Assembly (NCBI GenBank): GCA_963743635.1 | Contig: CAVUQO010000003.1 | Span: 320,001-384,000, forward strand | From: Candidatus Babeliales bacterium | Lineage (GTDB): Bacteria > Babelota > Babeliae > Babelales > Vermiphilaceae | Reading direction: 5' to 3' | DNA: 64,000 nt | In this document: in pieces, positions 39,001 through 45,000 of the stretch | Position numbering within the stretch: position 1 is the stretch's first letter | Layout: each line of letters begins with the position of its first letter | Program-made: the position numbers

Positions 39001-42000
39001 AACCAAAAATGTAGAACGTATCGTGTGAAAAGAGATTGGGCGCAGCATTGACCAATGTTTTACCTATTTGGTGCATATGATAGCGCGGTTCATAGTCGCG
39101 TGCCAAAGAAAGCCCAGGCCTTGAATAGATGAAGTTGCGCAGTGCGCCAGCTACGTCAAAAAGCCGTGTGCCGTGAATCCAGATGGTGATCGTATGATTG
39201 TCTTTTGCTTCAGGAGACACATCGATCGCGGTACGGACATTTTTAGGCGCAAAGACGACCTGCTTTTTCAGTGTCTGGAACCGTTGGGAAGAACAGCCAG
39301 GCAGCATAATCAGCAGTAGATAGAACAGGTGGAGGTAGGAAATGCGGGATTTCATTGTCGTGCGTCGCTACAATAAGCCTATAATAACAGTATCTAAACG
39401 TTACAATCCCTTTTAAAAAAGAATATGGTATTATATACAGCTTGTCAAACAACAAAAGGGGTTATCTATGTGTTTTTAGCTACTTTTTATGCTGCAGGCA
39501 CAGCTCCTTGAAGCCTTTAGGAGGTTTTTAGCCTTTATTTGAGCCAAAAAAGCGGCTTTGAAATTCTGATTGAGGCTCTAGATGGCTTTGTCTGAATTAA
39601 TTTGTTTCACGCTGAAATAAATCATTGAGATATGTGATGTTTTTTTGATAGGCTTATTCATGAGGTTGGAGGCCAGCAGTCTAAACCCAGTGCGATCCTT
39701 GGATCCCGCTCGGTCTAGACTGCTTGAATGCGAGTAATCGTACCAAGCGCGCTACCTTCGGCCTCATGTCTTTTGTTTCACGAATTGAGCTGGTTTGAAA
39801 AGCGGTTGATGGATATTGCCTGTCATGTGCGGCTAAGATATGCATACCCTAGTTTAAATCCTAAAACCCCGAATCTCATTGCTTTTTAGGCCCCCTTTCC
39901 ATATACTGAAAGTGTAATAATTCTCTATTATAGCCGTTAAGGGGAATATCATGGATACAATGGTATATATGTGGCTCAGCATCGCAGTATGCTTTCTCAT
40001 TTTTGAGGTCGGCCATCCCGGACTATTTTTCTTCCTTTCATTTTCATGCGGCGCGGTGTGCGCAGCAGCTCTGAGCTACGGTGAGTGTGGGCTTACCTGG
40101 CAAATTATTGGTTTTTTAATCAGTGCGGCATGTTCGTTACTGATCATGCGAAGCTTATTTCTAAGTAATGCGCAGAGCGGTACCCCGACCAATGTTTATG
40201 CATTGCAAGGAAAACATGCGGTGGTAACCCGTGCCATTCCAGCCCATGGTGTAGGGTCTGTGAAAGTAGGCGGGGAAGAATGGACTGCTGAATCGTTACA
40301 CAATGAGGCATATGCAGTTGGTACGCGTGTGACCATTATTCGAGTGCAAGGTGCTCGGGTGATCGTTGAGCGCGCTTAACATAATAAAAATAATCCTTAC
40401 ATAGGAAAGGGGTCGATTATGATCTTAGAATTTGGCATTTTTGCCATCGTAGTATTCATCTTTTTGATGGTGTTCATTGCAAAAGCAATTTACTTGGTAA
40501 GGCAATCTGAAGTAATGGTCATTGAAAAGTTTGGTAAATTTAGTCGCGTATTGCATCCAGGGATTCACTTTGTGATTCCGTTTGCAGAAACTCCGCATCA
40601 AGTAACCTGGACATTCATCTATCAAGGTGAAGGCAAGCGTTATTATCGTGTGACCAAGCAAGTAACGCGTATTGATATGCGTGAGGCGGTCTATGATTTT
40701 CCAAAGCAAAATGTGATCACTAAAGATAACGTCACCATGGAAATTAACGCGTTGCTCTATTATCAAATTACTGATCCTAAAGCAGCAATGTATGAAGTAT
40801 ATGATCTTCCAGAAGCTATCGAGAAATTAACACAAACAACATTGCGTAACGTCATCGGCTCTCTTGATCTTGATGAATCACTCGTTTCACGTGACCAAAT
40901 CAATGAAAAGTTGCGCATCATTCTTGATGAAGCAACGGATAAGTGGGGCGTCAAAGTGAACCGCGTTGAGCTGCAAGAGGTAAATCCTCCAGCAGACATT
41001 CGTCAGGCGATGGAAAAGCAGATGCGCGCTGAACGCGATCGTCGTGCGGTAATTTTGGAAGCTGAAGGTAAAAAGCGAGCAGCTATTTTGCAAGCAGAAG
41101 GTGCGCAAGAAGCGGCAGTGCTTGATGCACGCGGTGAAGCTGAATCAAAGGCAATTCGTGCCCAAGGTGAAGCGGATGCACGCTTAAAGATTGTTGAGGC
41201 CGAAGCAAAGGCAATTGGCATGATTACTCAAGCGGTGCCGGGCGTCGATCCATTGCCATACATGATTGCGTTGAATTACATCAAAATGATGCCTGAATTA
41301 ACGGCAGGTAAGAATGATAAGCTTATCTTGGTTCCGTACGAGGCAAGTTCACTCGCTGGCTCATTAACGGCAATGAAGAAGATGTTTGAAGAAATCAAAT
41401 AAACAGAATACATAACAAAAAAGAGGGACCTCTTTATCGGAGGTCCCTCTTTTCATTTCATGAGTGTGATTTATGTTCCTTATTCTTTTCCCGCAGCAAT
41501 GCGCTGGTAAGAAGTAGTGGAATTAATAACTTTTTCATGATCGTACTCTTTTATTTATGTGTAACTTTTTCATCATGAATAACCACATTGGTCTATCATG
41601 CTCTGGTTGGGAATACTGTTGTTTTTTATAAAAATGTTGGGCATCGGAGATACTATTGAGGTACATATAATCAATGTTATTCTGGATAGCGTTATCTTCA
41701 GCTTTTTTTAAAAGTAATGCACCCAATCCTTTACGCTGTTGCTTAGGATCAACAACGAGCCACTCTATTTTGGCGCCATTCATTTTGTTTAGTTCGATCG
41801 TTGAGGGGCAGTCAGGCATTTCATTATAAGCAACAGCGCGCGACTTCGCTTGATATATAATACAACCGAGGAGACAATCAGGACGATTTGAGCGTGTTTT
41901 GCGATAACTTCTAACCGCAACATCAATCCAATTTTTTCGGCAAGCTCTGTGACGAGTGACCGCGGCTGGTGGCGTTATCCAGGTAAATTCTTGCGTAAGA

Positions 42001-45000
42001 AGTTTGAGTACGGAGTCTTTATCTGTTTCATGATTAAATGACCTGATGCGCACATCTTCCATTGCATGCATCGATGCGCTGGTAAGAAGGAGTGTAATTA
42101 ATAACTTTTTCATGATCTTACTCTTTACTAATAGTCTTGCGCATGTAAAAGGGTATCTCTGTGTCTTCATAAGCATATCCTAGCTGTTCATAAAAAGATT
42201 GCTTGCCATTGATAGGCTGAAGAAATAGGTGATGGTCTTTTTTAGATGTCTGTATTGATTTTTCAACATGTTGCATGAGTAATTGGCCGTATCCCTTACA
42301 TCGATATTCGCGTGCAACAGATACTGCTTTGATTTCAGTCTCCGTTATTGATGAGCGATCCGTTGTTTGATATACAATGGCTCCCAATACTCTGTCTTCG
42401 CGCTTAGCCCGTGGTTTGACAAGAACATTTATTGTTATGTTAGGGTTACTTAAAATGTTGATGTCAATTAATGATTTGAATAGATCGAGGGCATTGCTTT
42501 GTTTTGCGGGATCAAACGGCACAATGCGCACATCTTCCATTGCATGCATCGATGCGCTGGTAAGTAGGATGGTTAGTAAGGCAAAAAGAGATCGTTTAGT
42601 ATACATATAAATTCCTTTCTTAGATTAAAAATTTAGTAAAGTGAAGACCTATGCCTTTGTTTTTGTTTTCTGTGCGGTCGTCTTTCACTTGCTTAAGCAT
42701 ATCTTGCATGTCTTCATTCATAGGGAGTGCCATCGAATCATGGGTTGTAGCATCGGCAGTGGTTTTAAAATATCCATGTTTTTCATAGAATGATCGAGTT
42801 CTATTAATTGCAACGAGGGCGATAATGTCTTGATCGGTCTTCTGCGCTACTTGCCCAATATGATTCAATAATCGTTGTCCAAATCCGTGTCCAGCACGCT
42901 TGTTAGTTTTGCGAAATTTATTAGCTATGGCCAGATAATCGAGCCGTAAAATATTAAGATAAGCTGATGAGTGTTTATATCTTCGTATGTCTGAAAAAGC
43001 TGCTTTATGCGGTATTGTTTCATTGTTCCAGATCGCAAAGCCAGCCGGTTTTTTTAGATATTCTAACACGGCGATTTTTGTTTCCGGATGATCTGTAGGT
43101 TTTGTAAGTTCTGAAGGGGGTTCTTCAGCATCAGGAAATGCGTTTAAGAAGATAGCTGAAACTTTTTTACCATGGGTCACGGGATTATAATCCACAATGC
43201 GTATCGCATCCTGATCCATTGCATGCAGCGAAGCACTGGCAAGAAAGAGAGCGAGTAGGTAGGAGTGTATTAATTTCATCCTTTGTCCTTGTTAAATGAA
43301 ATTTTTATTTAACAAGGTGGATTTTTGCTGTTCATAGTTTTCTTCACGTTTGGCGATTACCTCACGTAATATCTCTTTCATAGTATCATTCAGCGGCAGT
43401 GCCATGCGGTCTATTGAGAGTTGGCGAGGCAGAGTGTTGATGAAACCATTCTTTTCATAAAAAGGTCGCGAACCATAAGCTGCATGGAGGGATATGACAT
43501 CAGTCTCATATTCGTTCGCTTTTTCTCTAATGTAGTGTAATAAAGAAGAGCCAAGGCCCTTGCCTGCTCTGGTGTCAGTGTGGCGATGATTCTTGTGTAT
43601 TGCGATATGGAGGATCCGTACTATGTTAAAGTGTGTACGATTGTGGGTAGGATTATATATATCATTGAAGGCTTGATGCTTGGTCAATATTTCCCTTTCC
43701 CAGATTGCAAAACCAACGGTTTTCCCGTTCTCTTTCAGCACCGTTATATGCGCGTTGAGAGAAGTTGGCGTATTAATGAATACTGGATCAAGATCTGCGC
43801 CGCCAAATGCCTCTGAAAAGATATTTTGAACTTTGAGGGCATATTTTTGTGTAGGATCGTATTCAATATAGGTGAGATCTTTATGCTCCATTGCATGCAG
43901 CGATGCGCTGGCAAGAAGGAGAGTGAGTAATAATTTTTTCATGAGATTTTCCTTTTTTCTGTTGTTATATCGCTATCACGATTGAGATATTTTATCATGG
44001 TTAAAGATTCCGGCGCTTTCTCTCTGAATGCGAGCTTTTTTGTATAAAATTTTTTCGATTCTGGAGTAGCATTTATTTCTATTAAATCGATGTTATTTCT
44101 TGCCTGTACACCATCTATAAGCATCTGCACGAGGTTGGTGCCATAACCCTTAGATCGCATTGATTCAACGATAGCAAGGTTATATACATGGCGCTTTATG
44201 CGATTATTTGCAGTAAGAAAATCCCGAAAAATGGCAAATCCAATAAACGTATTATTGAGTAATAATGCGCAATTGCTGCTTTTTTGATCGTATAAGGCGT
44301 CTGACGCACTGCCATCAAATGTGCTACGATATAATTCTTCCGCTGCATGCCCATGGACCGCTTTATTAAGCGCGACGAGTTGAAGGTCATCAGGATTACT
44401 CCAGAGTGATGTGCTGCTCAGCAATAGAAGCGGTAATAATATATTAATCCTGAGAAGAGTCATAAGGTTTACTTCTTGCACCGTTTAAATGGATTAATGC
44501 TATCGATTATTCGTCTAGAAAATGAAGGAGTAAGATTTTTTATCATGATGGTTGAATCATTGGCGTCAATATAGGTGAAATTGCGTAACTCAAATGAGTG
44601 TTTTGATTCATCCCTTGTCCATGTAGACATGCGCATAATGTGCATTTCAGCAGCCGTTTCTTCCAGACATTGTATGGCCTTAGGCTCATATCTTTCATAT
44701 CCTTCTGTCATGATAAGATCATCGATCTTGAAAAGTTCTGTATTGGCGCGGCGCGTGCGTTGGCGGCTATAGAGTGCGATTCCTGCTATTTCGTTATTCA
44801 CTAGAAACACCGTTGCTGTTTGCTGACCAATGCGGTCATTGTGAGACGCCAGAGGATCAGTCGTTCCTTCCAAGGCGCTCGGCATGAGCTGACTTATTCT
44901 AGATTGCGGAGCATCGGCAGGGATCCTGGCAGCCGTAAACATTGCTTGTGCTTGCTCAGCATGGCTTGCAGGATTGAAAGGCACCATAGTGAGTTTCTGC

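What a model noticed while it worked through the whole genome (the two positions that open the first line are those of the whole stretch)
41535..43279. Over 120 proteins share a leader that ends Ala|Met-Gln/Glu/Asp/Asn
About 120 proteins (three in a row here, g01087-g01089; also the Skp1-WD40 family, the C2H2 finger proteins, RING, PP2C, GNAT and some 80 proteins of no family) carry a Sec-type leader whose cleavage region ends small residue-Met-Gln/Glu/Asp/Asn near residue 22. I read this as the export tag of the host-directed effector set: signal peptidase cuts before the Met, so the mature protein starts Met-Asp/Glu/Asn/Gln, the kind of N-terminus that eukaryotic cells make themselves (NatB class) and that no N-degron pathway attacks, which would hide or stabilise it in the amoeba's cytosol. 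New: no such +1 Met, +2 acidic/amide rule is described for a bacterial secretome; it gives a simple rule to list e [...]
Evidence so far: Scripts on proteins.faa: 637 of 1515 proteins of 60 aa or more are leader-like by a crude rule (Lys/Arg, then a 10-aa window of mean Kyte-Doolittle 2.2 or more within the first 31 aa); 224 have [AGS]-Met within 18 aa behind the core; the next residue is Q 39, E 31, D 28, N 24 (122 of 224), K only 6, whereas K is the commonest second residue of the 878 leaderless proteins (QEDN 23%). With a looser rule 153 of 758 leaders against 13 of 1064 random internal windows. Met at residue 20-24 (quartiles); -1 is Ala in 114 of 153, -3 is L/A/M/V/I. P(Met after Ala) 0.12-0.15 in the c-region, 0.02 in protein bodies. 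Not a second start: Shine-Dalgarno-like words before the inner Met in 2 of 122, before t [...]
(Added by a program. Inside this text positions count along the whole contig: contig position 320,001 is position 1 of the stretch shown here. "Call 12" and the like, gene names such as g00115 and contig names such as C1 are that model's own, and its searches are not shown. The text may have been shortened before it was handed on; [...] marks where a part breaks off. The agent that wrote the report below was given it as the finding of a first reader that could run no searches.)

Follow-up and report, generated by a model that had tools for sequence, protein, structure and literature searches.

The report
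Methionine-first rule after signal peptides
In this small host-dependent bacterium about 120 exported proteins, mostly fast-evolving or eukaryote-like ones, carry an export leader that ends just before a conserved methionine followed by an acidic or amide residue, a selected and apparently unpublished mark whose purpose is still unknown.

Summary
With my own gene call (1461 genes), 124 of 632 Sec-type leaders end small residue | Met-Gln/Asp/Glu/Asn, against 19 of 1361 internal hydrophobic stretches. After Ala in the cleavage region, Met is 13.1% against 2.0% in protein bodies. The 124 proteins fall into 94 unrelated mature families and 83 leader clusters, so paralogy does not explain it.

The inner Met is not a start: a Shine-Dalgarno word precedes 111 of 124 leader starts and 0 of 124 inner Mets. 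The Met is under selection. It is kept in homologues of 35-65% identity from other assemblies (21 of 24 in one family, 6 of 6 in another) while its neighbours vary. It also travels with a promoter-ribosome-site-leader cassette shared by unrelated proteins.

Carriers are WD40, RING, C2H2, DnaJ, Sel1, ankyrin and GCN5-like GNAT proteins and many orphans. The three genes of the finding belong to an eight-gene array of exported GCN5-like acetyltransferases.

The rule recurs in relatives but patchily (2-21%). Cleavage before Met and any role in the host are inferred, not shown. The NatB and N-degron reading is untested. A sorting role for the new N-terminus is at least as likely. I found no publication; two earlier reports of this scan saw the rule in other genomes.

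The parts
41535..42113 (-). Exported GNAT acetyltransferase, 192 aa. Leader at 42063-42113, then Met-Glu-Asp with the Met codon at 42060-42062. The longer ORF reaching 42176 is probably not used.
42118..42606 (-). Exported GNAT, 162 aa. Leader at 42541-42606 ends ..SMHA, followed by Met-Glu-Asp with the Met codon at 42538-42540. The SD-like word AAGAAAGGAA lies upstream.
42620..43279 (-). Exported GNAT, 219 aa. Leader at 43220-43279 ends ..SLHA, followed by Met-Asp-Gln with the Met codon at 43217-43219.
43292..43942 (-). Exported GNAT, 216 aa. Leader at 43892-43942 ends ..SLHA, followed by Met-Glu-His. A homologue at 43% identity from another assembly keeps the leader and A|MED.
43939..46429 (-). 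Four more paralogues of the same GNAT array: 43939-44463, 44469-45074, 45092-45658 and 45842-46429. Their sites are ..WS|NP, the lipobox-like LMG|C, ..IQA|MS and ..LCA|DQ. The Met is therefore not kept in every paralogue.
   Evidence: The profile of the eight genes best matches GCN5 histone acetyltransferases.
28673..36344 (-). Run of small orphan genes with leaders that end before Met: 28673-29140 A|MN, 30376-30750 A|MS, 32145-32450 A|MQ, 32518-32844 A|MD, 32954-33769, 35506-35973 and 36018-36344 A|MQ.
   Evidence: no Pfam family for those scanned
17204..17947 (-). Exported thioredoxin-domain protein. Its leader ends ..ALNA, followed by Met-Glu-Asn.

Best explanation
This is a lineage-specific 'Met-first' rule of Sec signal peptides.

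About a fifth of the Sec-type leaders of this 1.45-Mb genome end [L/A/I/V/M]-x-[Ala>Ser,Gly] and are followed by Met-[Gln/Asp/Glu/Asn]. The genome looks like a member of the Dependentiae (TM6), although no tool named it. Signal peptidase I most likely cuts in front of the Met, so the exported protein starts Met-acid/amide; this step is inferred.

Three things are shown. The dipeptide is part of the export cassette: promoter, ribosome site, leader and Met-Glu travel together in front of unrelated proteins. It is kept by purifying selection. It is carried mostly by fast-evolving orphans and proteins with eukaryote-type domains, that is, probable host-directed effectors.

The mechanism I think most likely is that the new N-terminus is read after cleavage as a second-step signal. 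That signal would route this subclass from the periplasm onward, out of the cell or into the host. Plasmodium uses the N-terminus exposed by PEXEL cleavage in a comparable way. This last step is inference only.
For: Rule real and not due to paralogy.

Leader translated and inner Met not a start:
- An SD word precedes 111 of 124 leader starts and 0 of 124 inner Mets.
- Leaders are conserved at protein level in homologues from other assemblies.

The junction is the functional boundary:
- 52 leader pairs of 60% identity or more join different mature families.
- Nucleotide identity runs from about -100 to the end of the leader and then collapses, in all 5 pairs examined.
- A methyltransferase carries the WD40-family leader up to GCG ATG GAG, and a further Met lies nine codons on. 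Met-Glu therefore belongs to the cassette.

Selection:
- PLD family: 21 of 24 homologues (35-100% identity) have Met, with +2 E/D/N in 19, while -1 varies among G, S, A and P.
- Sel1/DUF5092 family: 6 of 6 keep A|ME while -3, -2 and +3 vary.
- NUDIX family: 14 of 28 leader-bearing representatives have it.
- All four Ala codons and mixed +2 codons are used, so this is not a fixed DNA word.

Carriers:
- Of 71 Met-QEDN proteins in the first batch: WD40 or WD40-like 20, RING 4, C2H2 2, DnaJ 2, Sel1/DUF5092 5, GNAT 3, ankyrin 3, single enzymes 6, one false hit (DnaN), none 25.
- Adhesin, cell-wall and membrane-lipid types (YadA, NHL/fn3, NamZ, M15, PAP2) all have other +2 residues.
- S41 protease and TolB homologues have ordinary sites.

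The peptidase does not need Met: 424 leaders lack it and show ordinary sites such as A|A, A|D and A|G.

Precedent for a signal in a cleavage-exposed N-terminus: PEXEL (10.1101/2023.07.12.548774 and PMC3567231, abstract openings seen in the search listing).

A patchy spread among close relatives fits a lineage-specific bacterial reader better than a universal host enzyme.
Against: - No signal-peptide predictor or N-terminal proteomics was available, so the cleavage site is inferred.
- No candidate receptor or machine was found.
- The effector status and the destination of the carriers are inferred from domain types only.
- Some effector-like proteins lack the mark: three ankyrin proteins, two GNATs and one AAA protein.
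- The BamA homologue may carry G|MDE.
- Within the GNAT array only 5 of 8 paralogues keep the Met.
- A homologue pair with G017 has Leu at the aligned place.
- Type II secretion signals are generally thought to be conformational rather than N-terminal (recalled).
- The set Q/D/E/N is exactly the NatB substrate class, which points to the host reading instead.
Confidence: 0.35

Rival explanations
1. Host-side reading. Once in the host cytosol, a Met-Asp/Glu/Asn/Gln start looks like a normal eukaryotic N-terminus of the NatB class. It is not an Arg/N-degron, and it may become acetylated, which would stabilise or hide the effector.
For: - The four favoured +2 residues are exactly the NatB substrate set (PMC11735805, passage read).
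- Without the Met, an Asp, Glu, Asn or Gln start would be a secondary or tertiary Arg/N-degron (same paper). Ordinary leaders here expose D, N, Q or E at +1 in 91 of 384 sites. A Met cap would therefore make sense for proteins bound for the host cytosol.
- Carriers have cytosolic or nuclear domain types.
- The GNAT array is GCN5-like, that is, aimed at the host.
Against: - NatB is described as acting co-translationally, tethered to the ribosome. [quoted passage not shown]
- Ala, Ser or Thr at +1 would also avoid the Arg/N-degron pathway, yet Met is chosen.
- Relatives in the same family lack the rule: G047 4 of 120 and G042 1 of 44. Their few effector-like exported proteins have ordinary sites.
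- Delivery into host cytosol is itself not shown.
Confidence: 0.25
2. A preference or by-product of the signal peptidase, with no later role. One of the two S26 peptidase types of this lineage cuts best before Met-acid/amide, and leaders have adapted to it.
For: - G000 has two tandem S26 genes of different build.
- The three sampled genomes whose only S26 hit is the split type show 2.3-7.4% Met after Ala.
- Five of the six genomes with a continuous S26 hit show 9.4-20.6%.
Against: - There are only nine genomes, and they are related, so the association may just mark a clade.
- G058 has the continuous type and only 4.1%.
- G017 has a single S26 gene and the strong rule, yet still has many ordinary sites.
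- Within G000, 424 leaders lack the Met.
- This reading does not explain why the carriers are a particular class of proteins.
Confidence: 0.12
3. A neutral relic. Leaders were grafted in front of older genes, and the Met is the old start codon that has not yet decayed.
For: - Cassette grafting does happen.
- Carriers are young, lineage-specific genes: only 43 of 208 have any hit in 1.2 Mb sampled from six relatives.
Against: - The Met is kept in homologues down to 35% identity while its neighbours vary.
- In the one graft dissected, Met-Glu came with the cassette, and the target's likely own start lies nine codons downstream.
- The +2 residue is Q/E/D/N in 60-71% of cases, against 23% in second codons of leaderless genes.
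- The motif sits on 83 dissimilar leader clusters.
Confidence: 0.08
4. The inner Met is the true start, or a second start. The 'leader' would then be untranslated upstream sequence, or the gene would make two forms, one exported and one cytoplasmic.
For: - My own start picker chose the inner Met for a few such genes.
- One database homologue is annotated from the Met-Glu.
- An earlier report of this scan says that gene finders often start these genes at the inner ATG.
Against: - 0 of 124 inner Mets have an SD word at -15 to -7, against 111 of 124 leader starts.
- The leaders have n-h-c architecture and are conserved as protein in other assemblies.
- Between two paralogous leaders, 3 of 4 internal codon differences are synonymous.
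Confidence: 0.04

Closest known systems
Bacteroidetes Q-rule (PMC5837995 and PMC10653852; abstract openings seen in the listing, and PMC5837995 searched for five words)
   Same: It is a phylum-level rule for the residue exposed at +1 by signal peptidase I. It sits on otherwise ordinary Sec leaders and is linked there to what happens to the new N-terminus.
   Different: - There +1 is Gln, which a glutaminyl cyclase cyclises to pyroglutamate, and most SPI substrates follow the rule.
- Here +1 is Met with an acidic or amide +2, and only about a fifth of leaders follow it.
- The carriers here are a particular class of proteins, and no modifying enzyme is known.
- The Q-rule paper holds none of the words methionine, TM6 or Dependentiae.
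Plasmodium PEXEL/HT motif (10.1101/2023.07.12.548774 and PMC3567231; abstract openings seen in the listing)
   Same: An intracellular parasite marks host-directed proteins near the signal peptide. Cleavage exposes a new N-terminus that is needed for translocation into the host. I recall, but did not see in a call, that the second residue of that N-terminus is E, Q or D.
   Different: - PEXEL is eukaryotic, lies downstream of the signal peptide, and is cut after Leu by plasmepsin V in the ER.
- Here the cut would be made by bacterial signal peptidase after Ala, Ser or Gly.
- There is no sequence relationship, and the export role here is untested.
Classical Sec/signal peptidase I signal peptide
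   Same: Positive n-region, hydrophobic core, small residues at -1 and -3, and a length of about 20-23 residues.
   Different: - +1 is Met in 112 of 496 sites. I recall Ala as typical in other bacteria and Met as rare; this was not tested on an outgroup.
- The -3 residue is often bulky: L23, I18 and M9 of 94.
Phytoplasma SVM signal (conserved signal peptide on sequence-variable effector proteins; recalled, no call)
   Same: A conserved leader sits in front of unrelated or hyper-variable mature proteins in a reduced, host-dependent bacterium (compare).
   Different: There one leader family is shared. Here 83 dissimilar leader clusters share only the junction rule.
Sec-leader-rich proteomes of Dependentiae (Chromulinavorax PMC6561590, Babela PMC4378268; passages read)
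   Same: 44% of CDS have signal peptides in Chromulinavorax, and 79 of 126 ankyrin proteins have one in Babela, where they are taken to be secreted into the host. Here 719 of 1461 genes have leader-like starts.
   Different: The passages that hold the search words (signal peptide, secreted, N-terminal, leader) do not mention any +1 Met rule. I did not read either paper in full or see its supplements.

Membership tests
Sec/SPase I signal peptide | Positively charged n-region followed by an uncharged hydrophobic core of about 8-15 residues | tested here: met
   This was the rule used to define leaders. 632 are SP-like and 87 are longer and TM-like.
Sec/SPase I signal peptide | Small residue at -1 and small or aliphatic residue at -3, with the site 3-8 residues behind the core | tested here: met
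   One protein per family, n=94: -1 is A61 S17 G14 C2; -3 is L23 A20 I18 V12 M9. Leader length quartiles are 18, 21 and 22.
Sec/SPase I signal peptide | Signal peptidase I gene in the genome | tested here: met
   Two tandem S26 genes in G000. S26 was found in 31 of 31 and 41 of 41 genomes searched.
Sec/SPase I signal peptide | Cleavage demonstrated at the predicted bond | not testable with these tools
   No predictor such as SignalP and no proteomics were at hand.
Bacteroidetes Q-rule | Gln at +1 in most SPI substrates | tested here: not met
   +1 is Gln in 22 of 496 sites and Met in 112.
Bacteroidetes Q-rule | Glutaminyl cyclase that modifies the new N-terminus | not tested
   No search for a cyclase or any other N-terminal modifying enzyme was run.
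PEXEL/HT motif | RxLxE/Q/D with cleavage after Leu (motif recalled) | tested here: not met
   -1 is A, S, G or C in 94 of 94. Only the x-E/Q/D-like start of the mature protein is alike.
NatB substrate class | N-terminus Met-Asp/Glu/Asn/Gln (PMC11735805) | tested here: met
   124 of 208 Met-class leaders, for the predicted mature end only.
NatB substrate class | Acetylated by NatB, which acts on nascent chains at the ribosome | not testable with these tools
   These proteins are made on bacterial ribosomes, so any acetylation would have to be post-translational.
GNAT (GCN5-related N-acetyltransferase), the three genes of the finding | Match to GNAT profiles above the curated cut-off | tested here: met
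   - 41535-42113: PF00583 at 37.6 bits (cut-off 20.7).
- 42118-42606: PF13508 at 40.3 bits (cut-off 27).
- 42620-43279: only 24.0 bits, below the cut-off of 27, but it aligns with its paralogues.
- The array profile matches GCN5 HAT 1qst at E = 1.1e-12.

The most novel reading that the evidence does not exclude
The Met-acid/amide start is a bacterial counterpart of PEXEL. It would be a two-residue signal on the N-terminus exposed by signal peptidase, one that defines and routes the host-directed effector set of many Dependentiae. It might be completed by N-terminal acetylation, either by host NatB or by the bacterium's own exported GNATs. If so, a simple sequence rule would list the effectors of a whole uncultured phylum and point to an unknown post-Sec translocation step.
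Probability: 0.25. Interest if true: 0.85.

Novelty: new variant of a known kind. Interest (0 to 1): 0.65.

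Why it matters
Dependentiae are obligate parasites of protists. They put Sec leaders on nearly half of their proteins, and no dedicated effector injection system has been described for them in the papers I read. How their eukaryote-like proteins leave the periplasm and reach the host is an open question.

A selected two-residue mark at the mature N-terminus has several uses:
- It gives a testable handle on that step.
- It offers a cheap rule to list candidate effectors in hundreds of metagenome genomes.
- It warns annotators, because gene finders can start these genes at the inner ATG and so lose the leader.
- It would be a second example, after the Bacteroidetes Q-rule, of a phylum-level rule for the residue exposed by signal peptidase I.

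Tried and rejected
Naming the organism
- The protein atlas, queried with the S26 peptidase, gave no useful taxa.
- Cluster members carried no organism names.
- The assignment to Dependentiae therefore rests on traits and on earlier reports of this scan about other genomes.

Orthologue test in sampled relatives
- Only 13 alignments covered the Met, and most were false members of the class. I replaced this test with database homologues.

Site picker
- The +1-blind site picker misplaces sites whose -1 is Gly or Ser. In the PLD family it found 6 sites, against 21 by eye. Its Met counts are therefore lower bounds.

Searches that found nothing
- No shared promoter word stands upstream of Met-QEDN genes beyond SD words.
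- No NCBIfam or Pfam model matches the leaders: 0 of 45 in NCBIfam, and no N-terminal signal family among the 208 Pfam scans.
- A single GNAT sequence found nothing in PDB; the profile did.
- Pfam found no Skp1/BTB domain in 3 WD40-family N-termini.

Literature
- McLean 2013 on TM6 (PMC3696752) is not held. I could not check whether it mentions a leader motif.
- Searches found no description of the rule.
- Supplements of the Babela and Chromulinavorax papers were not looked at.

Limits of sampling
- No outgroup genome was run through my pipeline. The internal negative controls are G042, G047 and G058 (2.3-4.1%, against 2.4-2.9% in bodies).
- Sequencing-run look-up, read laying, structure prediction and complex prediction were not used.

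Full report
**What is at the coordinates.** The stretch 41535-43279 (-) holds three small genes. Their products begin MKKLLITLLLTSASMHA|MEDVRI, MYTKRSLFALLTILLTSASMHA|MEDVRI and MKLIHSYLLALFLASASLHA|MDQDAI. All three are GNAT acetyltransferases by Pfam, although the third scores below the curated cut-off. They belong to a tandem array of eight exported paralogues that runs to 46429. A profile of the eight matches GCN5-type histone acetyltransferases best (Tetrahymena 1qst 1.1e-12, yeast 1ygh 1.3e-10). N-terminal acetyltransferases such as Naa30 score lower, at 1.7e-8. Within the array the predicted sites are A|ME, A|ME, A|MD, A|ME, A|MS, WS|NP, a lipobox-like LMG|C, and CA|DQ.

**The genome.** The window is C3:320001-384000 of a 1.454-Mb assembly of three contigs with about 42% G+C. 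All 70 relatives offered, up to phylum level, have 0.8-1.8 Mb and belong to one order. No tool gave a name. Several traits match published Dependentiae (TM6) (PMC6561590 and PMC4378268, passages read):
- half of the genes have leader-like starts;
- WD40, RING, ankyrin and C2H2 proteins sit behind Sec leaders;
- pilin-like leaders are present.

Two earlier reports of this scan describe the same junction rule in genomes they call Dependentiae. I treat that assignment as likely, not shown.

**Checking the observation.** I called genes with a codon-bias filter (1461 genes). Starts were chosen from SD words, start-codon type and upstream coding signal. The anti-SD tail of the 16S rRNA is CCTCCTTT. 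An SD-like word lies at -15 to -7 before 56% of 176 unambiguous starts, against 9% of internal Mets. The main results are these:
- 719 genes have a leader-like N-terminus.
- In the cleavage region the residue after Ala is Met in 160 of 1219 cases (13.1%), against 2.0% in protein bodies. No other residue exceeds 1.5-fold.
- A site picker that scores only -1, -3 and distance puts Met at +1 in 112 of 496 sites. This makes Met the commonest +1 residue.
- Given Met, +2 is Q30 E22 D20 N8 (80 of 112), against 97 of 384 for other +1 residues.
- After hydrophobic +1 residues (L, I, V, F) only 21 of 66 have Q/E/D/N at +2. The pair is therefore specific to Met.
- The same pattern follows only 19 of 1361 internal hydrophobic stretches.
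- The 124 proteins fall into 94 families by their mature parts and 83 leader clusters at 50% identity or more.
- Position +3 is also amide-rich, 28% against 6% in ordinary leaders.

**Is the inner Met a start codon?** No SD-like word lies before any of the 124 inner Mets, while 111 of 124 leader starts have one. The second figure is partly circular, because the start picker used SD words. The leaders have n-h-c architecture. They are also conserved as protein in homologues from other assemblies. Between two paralogous leaders, 3 of 4 internal codon differences are synonymous.

**Is it a DNA word?** No. The Ala at -1 uses all four codons (GCA 36, GCG 28, GCT 15, GCC 9 of 88), and the +2 codons are mixed.

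**Is it a relic of old start codons?** Leader grafting does occur.
- 52 pairs of leaders that are 60% or more identical stand in front of different mature families.
- In the five pairs examined, nucleotide identity runs from about -100 through the leader and collapses after it. The unit that moves is therefore promoter, ribosome site and leader together.
- In the clearest case, a methyltransferase (L091:16187-16843) carries the WD40-family leader. Identity runs through GCG ATG GAG and fades over the next few codons, and a further Met lies nine codons downstream. The Met-Glu thus came with the cassette, not with the target gene.

The Met is also kept over long divergence.
- In a PLD-type family, 21 of 24 homologues (35-100% identity, from many assemblies) have the Met, with +2 E/D/N in 19 and Gly in 2. 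Position -1 varies among G, S, A and P. Two homologues have G|SDE instead, and one is annotated from the Met-Glu.
- In a Sel1/DUF5092 family, 6 of 6 homologues (39-100% identity) keep A|ME while -3, -2 and +3 all vary.
- In a NUDIX family, 14 of 28 leader-bearing representatives have the Met.
- The one database homologue of a window GNAT (43% identity) keeps the leader and A|MED.

A neutral relic would not behave so. Against uniform constraint, three of the eight GNAT paralogues lack the Met. A G017 homologue of another carrier has Leu at the aligned place.

**Who carries it.** Pfam was run on all 208 Met-class proteins.
- Among the 71 Met-QEDN proteins of the first batch: WD40 or WD40-like 20, RING or ankyrin-RING 4, C2H2 fingers 2, DnaJ 2, Sel1/DUF5092 5, GNAT 3 and ankyrin 3.
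- There was one each of M49 peptidase, NUDIX, PLD, sulfotransferase, methyltransferase and thioredoxin, one false hit (DnaN), and 25 with no family.
- In the second batch of 90 small proteins, 80 have no family.
- Adhesin, cell-wall and membrane-lipid types (YadA head, NHL/fn3 propellers, NamZ, M15 peptidase, PAP2) all fall in the subclass whose +2 is not Q/E/D/N.

For comparison I scanned 110 leaders without the Met, one per family. Of these, 38 have a Pfam family. They include DegP-like protease, an outer-membrane barrel, GH1, GH3, thioredoxin and C11/C39 peptidases. They also include three ankyrin proteins, two GNATs, an AAA protein, and several enzymes of cytoplasmic type such as PRPP synthetase. 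Homologues of S41 protease and TolB have ordinary sites (A|DE, G|EQ). The BamA homologue, however, reads ..MSVRG|MDEHD. The mark is therefore strongly enriched on effector-like and orphan proteins, but it is neither exclusive nor exhaustive. Carriers sit next to each other more often than chance would give: 28 adjacent pairs against 10.5 expected.

**Relatives.** The same pipeline was run on 100-200 kb samples. The table gives Met after Ala in the cleavage region, against protein bodies.

| Genome | Family | Met after Ala | In bodies |
|---|---|---|---|
| G010 | same | 27/131 (20.6%) | 1.5% |
| G017 | same | 30/172 (17.4%) | 1.6% |
| G009 | same | 9/96 (9.4%) | 2.6% |
| G028 | another | 14/146 (9.6%) | 1.8% |
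| G014 | same | 4/54 (7.4%) | 2.2% |
| G058 | another | 4/97 (4.1%) | 2.9% |
| G047 | same | 4/120 (3.3%) | 2.4% |
| G042 | same | 1/44 (2.3%) | 2.9% |

Where Met is at +1, the next residue is again mostly Q/E/D/N (21 of 28 in G017, 17 of 19 in G010). The low genomes also serve as internal controls: they show that the pipeline does not itself create the signal. The rule is thus shared across at least two families of the order, but it is patchy.

One lead concerns the S26 peptidase. The three genomes whose only S26 hit is of the split type (G047, G042, G014) are all low. Five of the six genomes with a continuous S26 hit are at 9.4% or more. With nine related genomes this is no more than a lead.

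**What it does.** Shown: a selected Met-acid/amide pair at the leader junction, carried with the export cassette, mostly on effector-like proteins. Inferred: cleavage before the Met, and a role after cleavage. Two readings remain.

- *Bacterial reading.* The new N-terminus is a second-step sorting signal. The precedent is Plasmodium PEXEL, where cleavage exposes an N-terminus needed for translocation into the host (10.1101/2023.07.12.548774 and PMC3567231, abstract openings). The patchy spread among close relatives fits this reading. Type II secretion parts and two gspD copies are core genes of the phylum (PMC4776705, passage read), but no reader of the signal is known.
- *Host reading.* Met-Asp/Glu/Asn/Gln is exactly the NatB class, and the Met would cap what is otherwise an Arg/N-degron (PMC11735805, passages read). 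However, the same review describes NatB as ribosome-tethered and co-translational. Ala, Ser or Thr would do as well against the N-degron. Relatives also manage without the rule.

My odds are:

| Reading | Odds |
|---|---|
| Bacterial sorting | 0.35 |
| Host reading | 0.25 |
| Peptidase preference only | 0.12 |
| Neutral relic | 0.08 |
| Alternative start | 0.04 |
| Something else | the rest |

**Novelty.** Six full-text searches found no description of the rule. Nor did the passages of the Chromulinavorax, Babela and TM6-comparative papers that hold the words signal peptide, secretion, secreted, effector or leader. The first TM6 genome paper could not be read. The closest published thing is the Bacteroidetes Q-rule (PMC5837995). 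Two earlier reports of this scan (e1-2372423, e1-2087300) already noted the rule in other genomes.
- the control counts;
- evidence of selection from homologues;
- the cassette anatomy;
- the protein classes with and without the mark;
- the patchy spread among relatives.

Noticed in passing
window 41535-46429 (-): Tandem array of eight exported small GNATs. Their joint profile is closest to eukaryotic GCN5 histone acetyltransferases (1qst, 1.1e-12). They are candidate host-chromatin or host-protein acetylating effectors.
   Followed up: partly
L091:16187-16843 (+) compared with L091:14213-16033 (+); also g0255/g0493, g0417/g1233, g1054/g1118: Promoter, ribosome-site and leader cassettes (about -100 to +70) are shared by genes whose mature parts are unrelated, for example a methyltransferase behind the WD40-family leader. 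52 such leader pairs of 60% identity or more were found.
   Followed up: partly
L106:9026-10063 (+), L087:148-795 (+), L111:9370-11160 (+), L129:14802-15800 (+): Enzymes of cytoplasmic type (PRPP synthetase, nitroreductase, a MutS domain V protein, dihydroorotate dehydrogenase) carry ordinary Sec-type leaders with sites such as AYA|AE.
   Followed up: no
G000 C3:523052-524050 and 524066-525004 (+) = L144:1755-2750 and 2769-3704: Two tandem S26 signal peptidases of different build: one matches Pfam in a split way, the other continuously. Across nine sampled genomes, the three with only the split type have little or none of the Met rule.
   Followed up: partly
G000 C3, + strand, ORF starting near 484401 (gene g0023): The long ORF of the BamA homologue reads MKRRFISYLLCAGGILLTTLTMSVRG|MDEHD. 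It is a core outer-membrane protein that may carry the Met-Asp start. My start picker chose the inner Met.
   Followed up: no
whole genome G000: SD-like words precede 87 of 94 Met-QEDN genes (one per family), 326 of 424 other leader-bearing genes, and only 325 of 742 leaderless genes. Some of the leaderless starts are probably miscalled.
   Followed up: no
window 28673-36344 (-): Run of seven small orphan genes (about 100-270 aa), all with leaders that end before Met and none with a Pfam family among those scanned. It looks like an effector-type island.
   Followed up: no
L117:3546-4145 (-), L091:14213-14812 (+), L151:8431-9030 (+): The first 200 residues of three WD40-family members hit no Pfam family at E <= 0.01.
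   Followed up: partly
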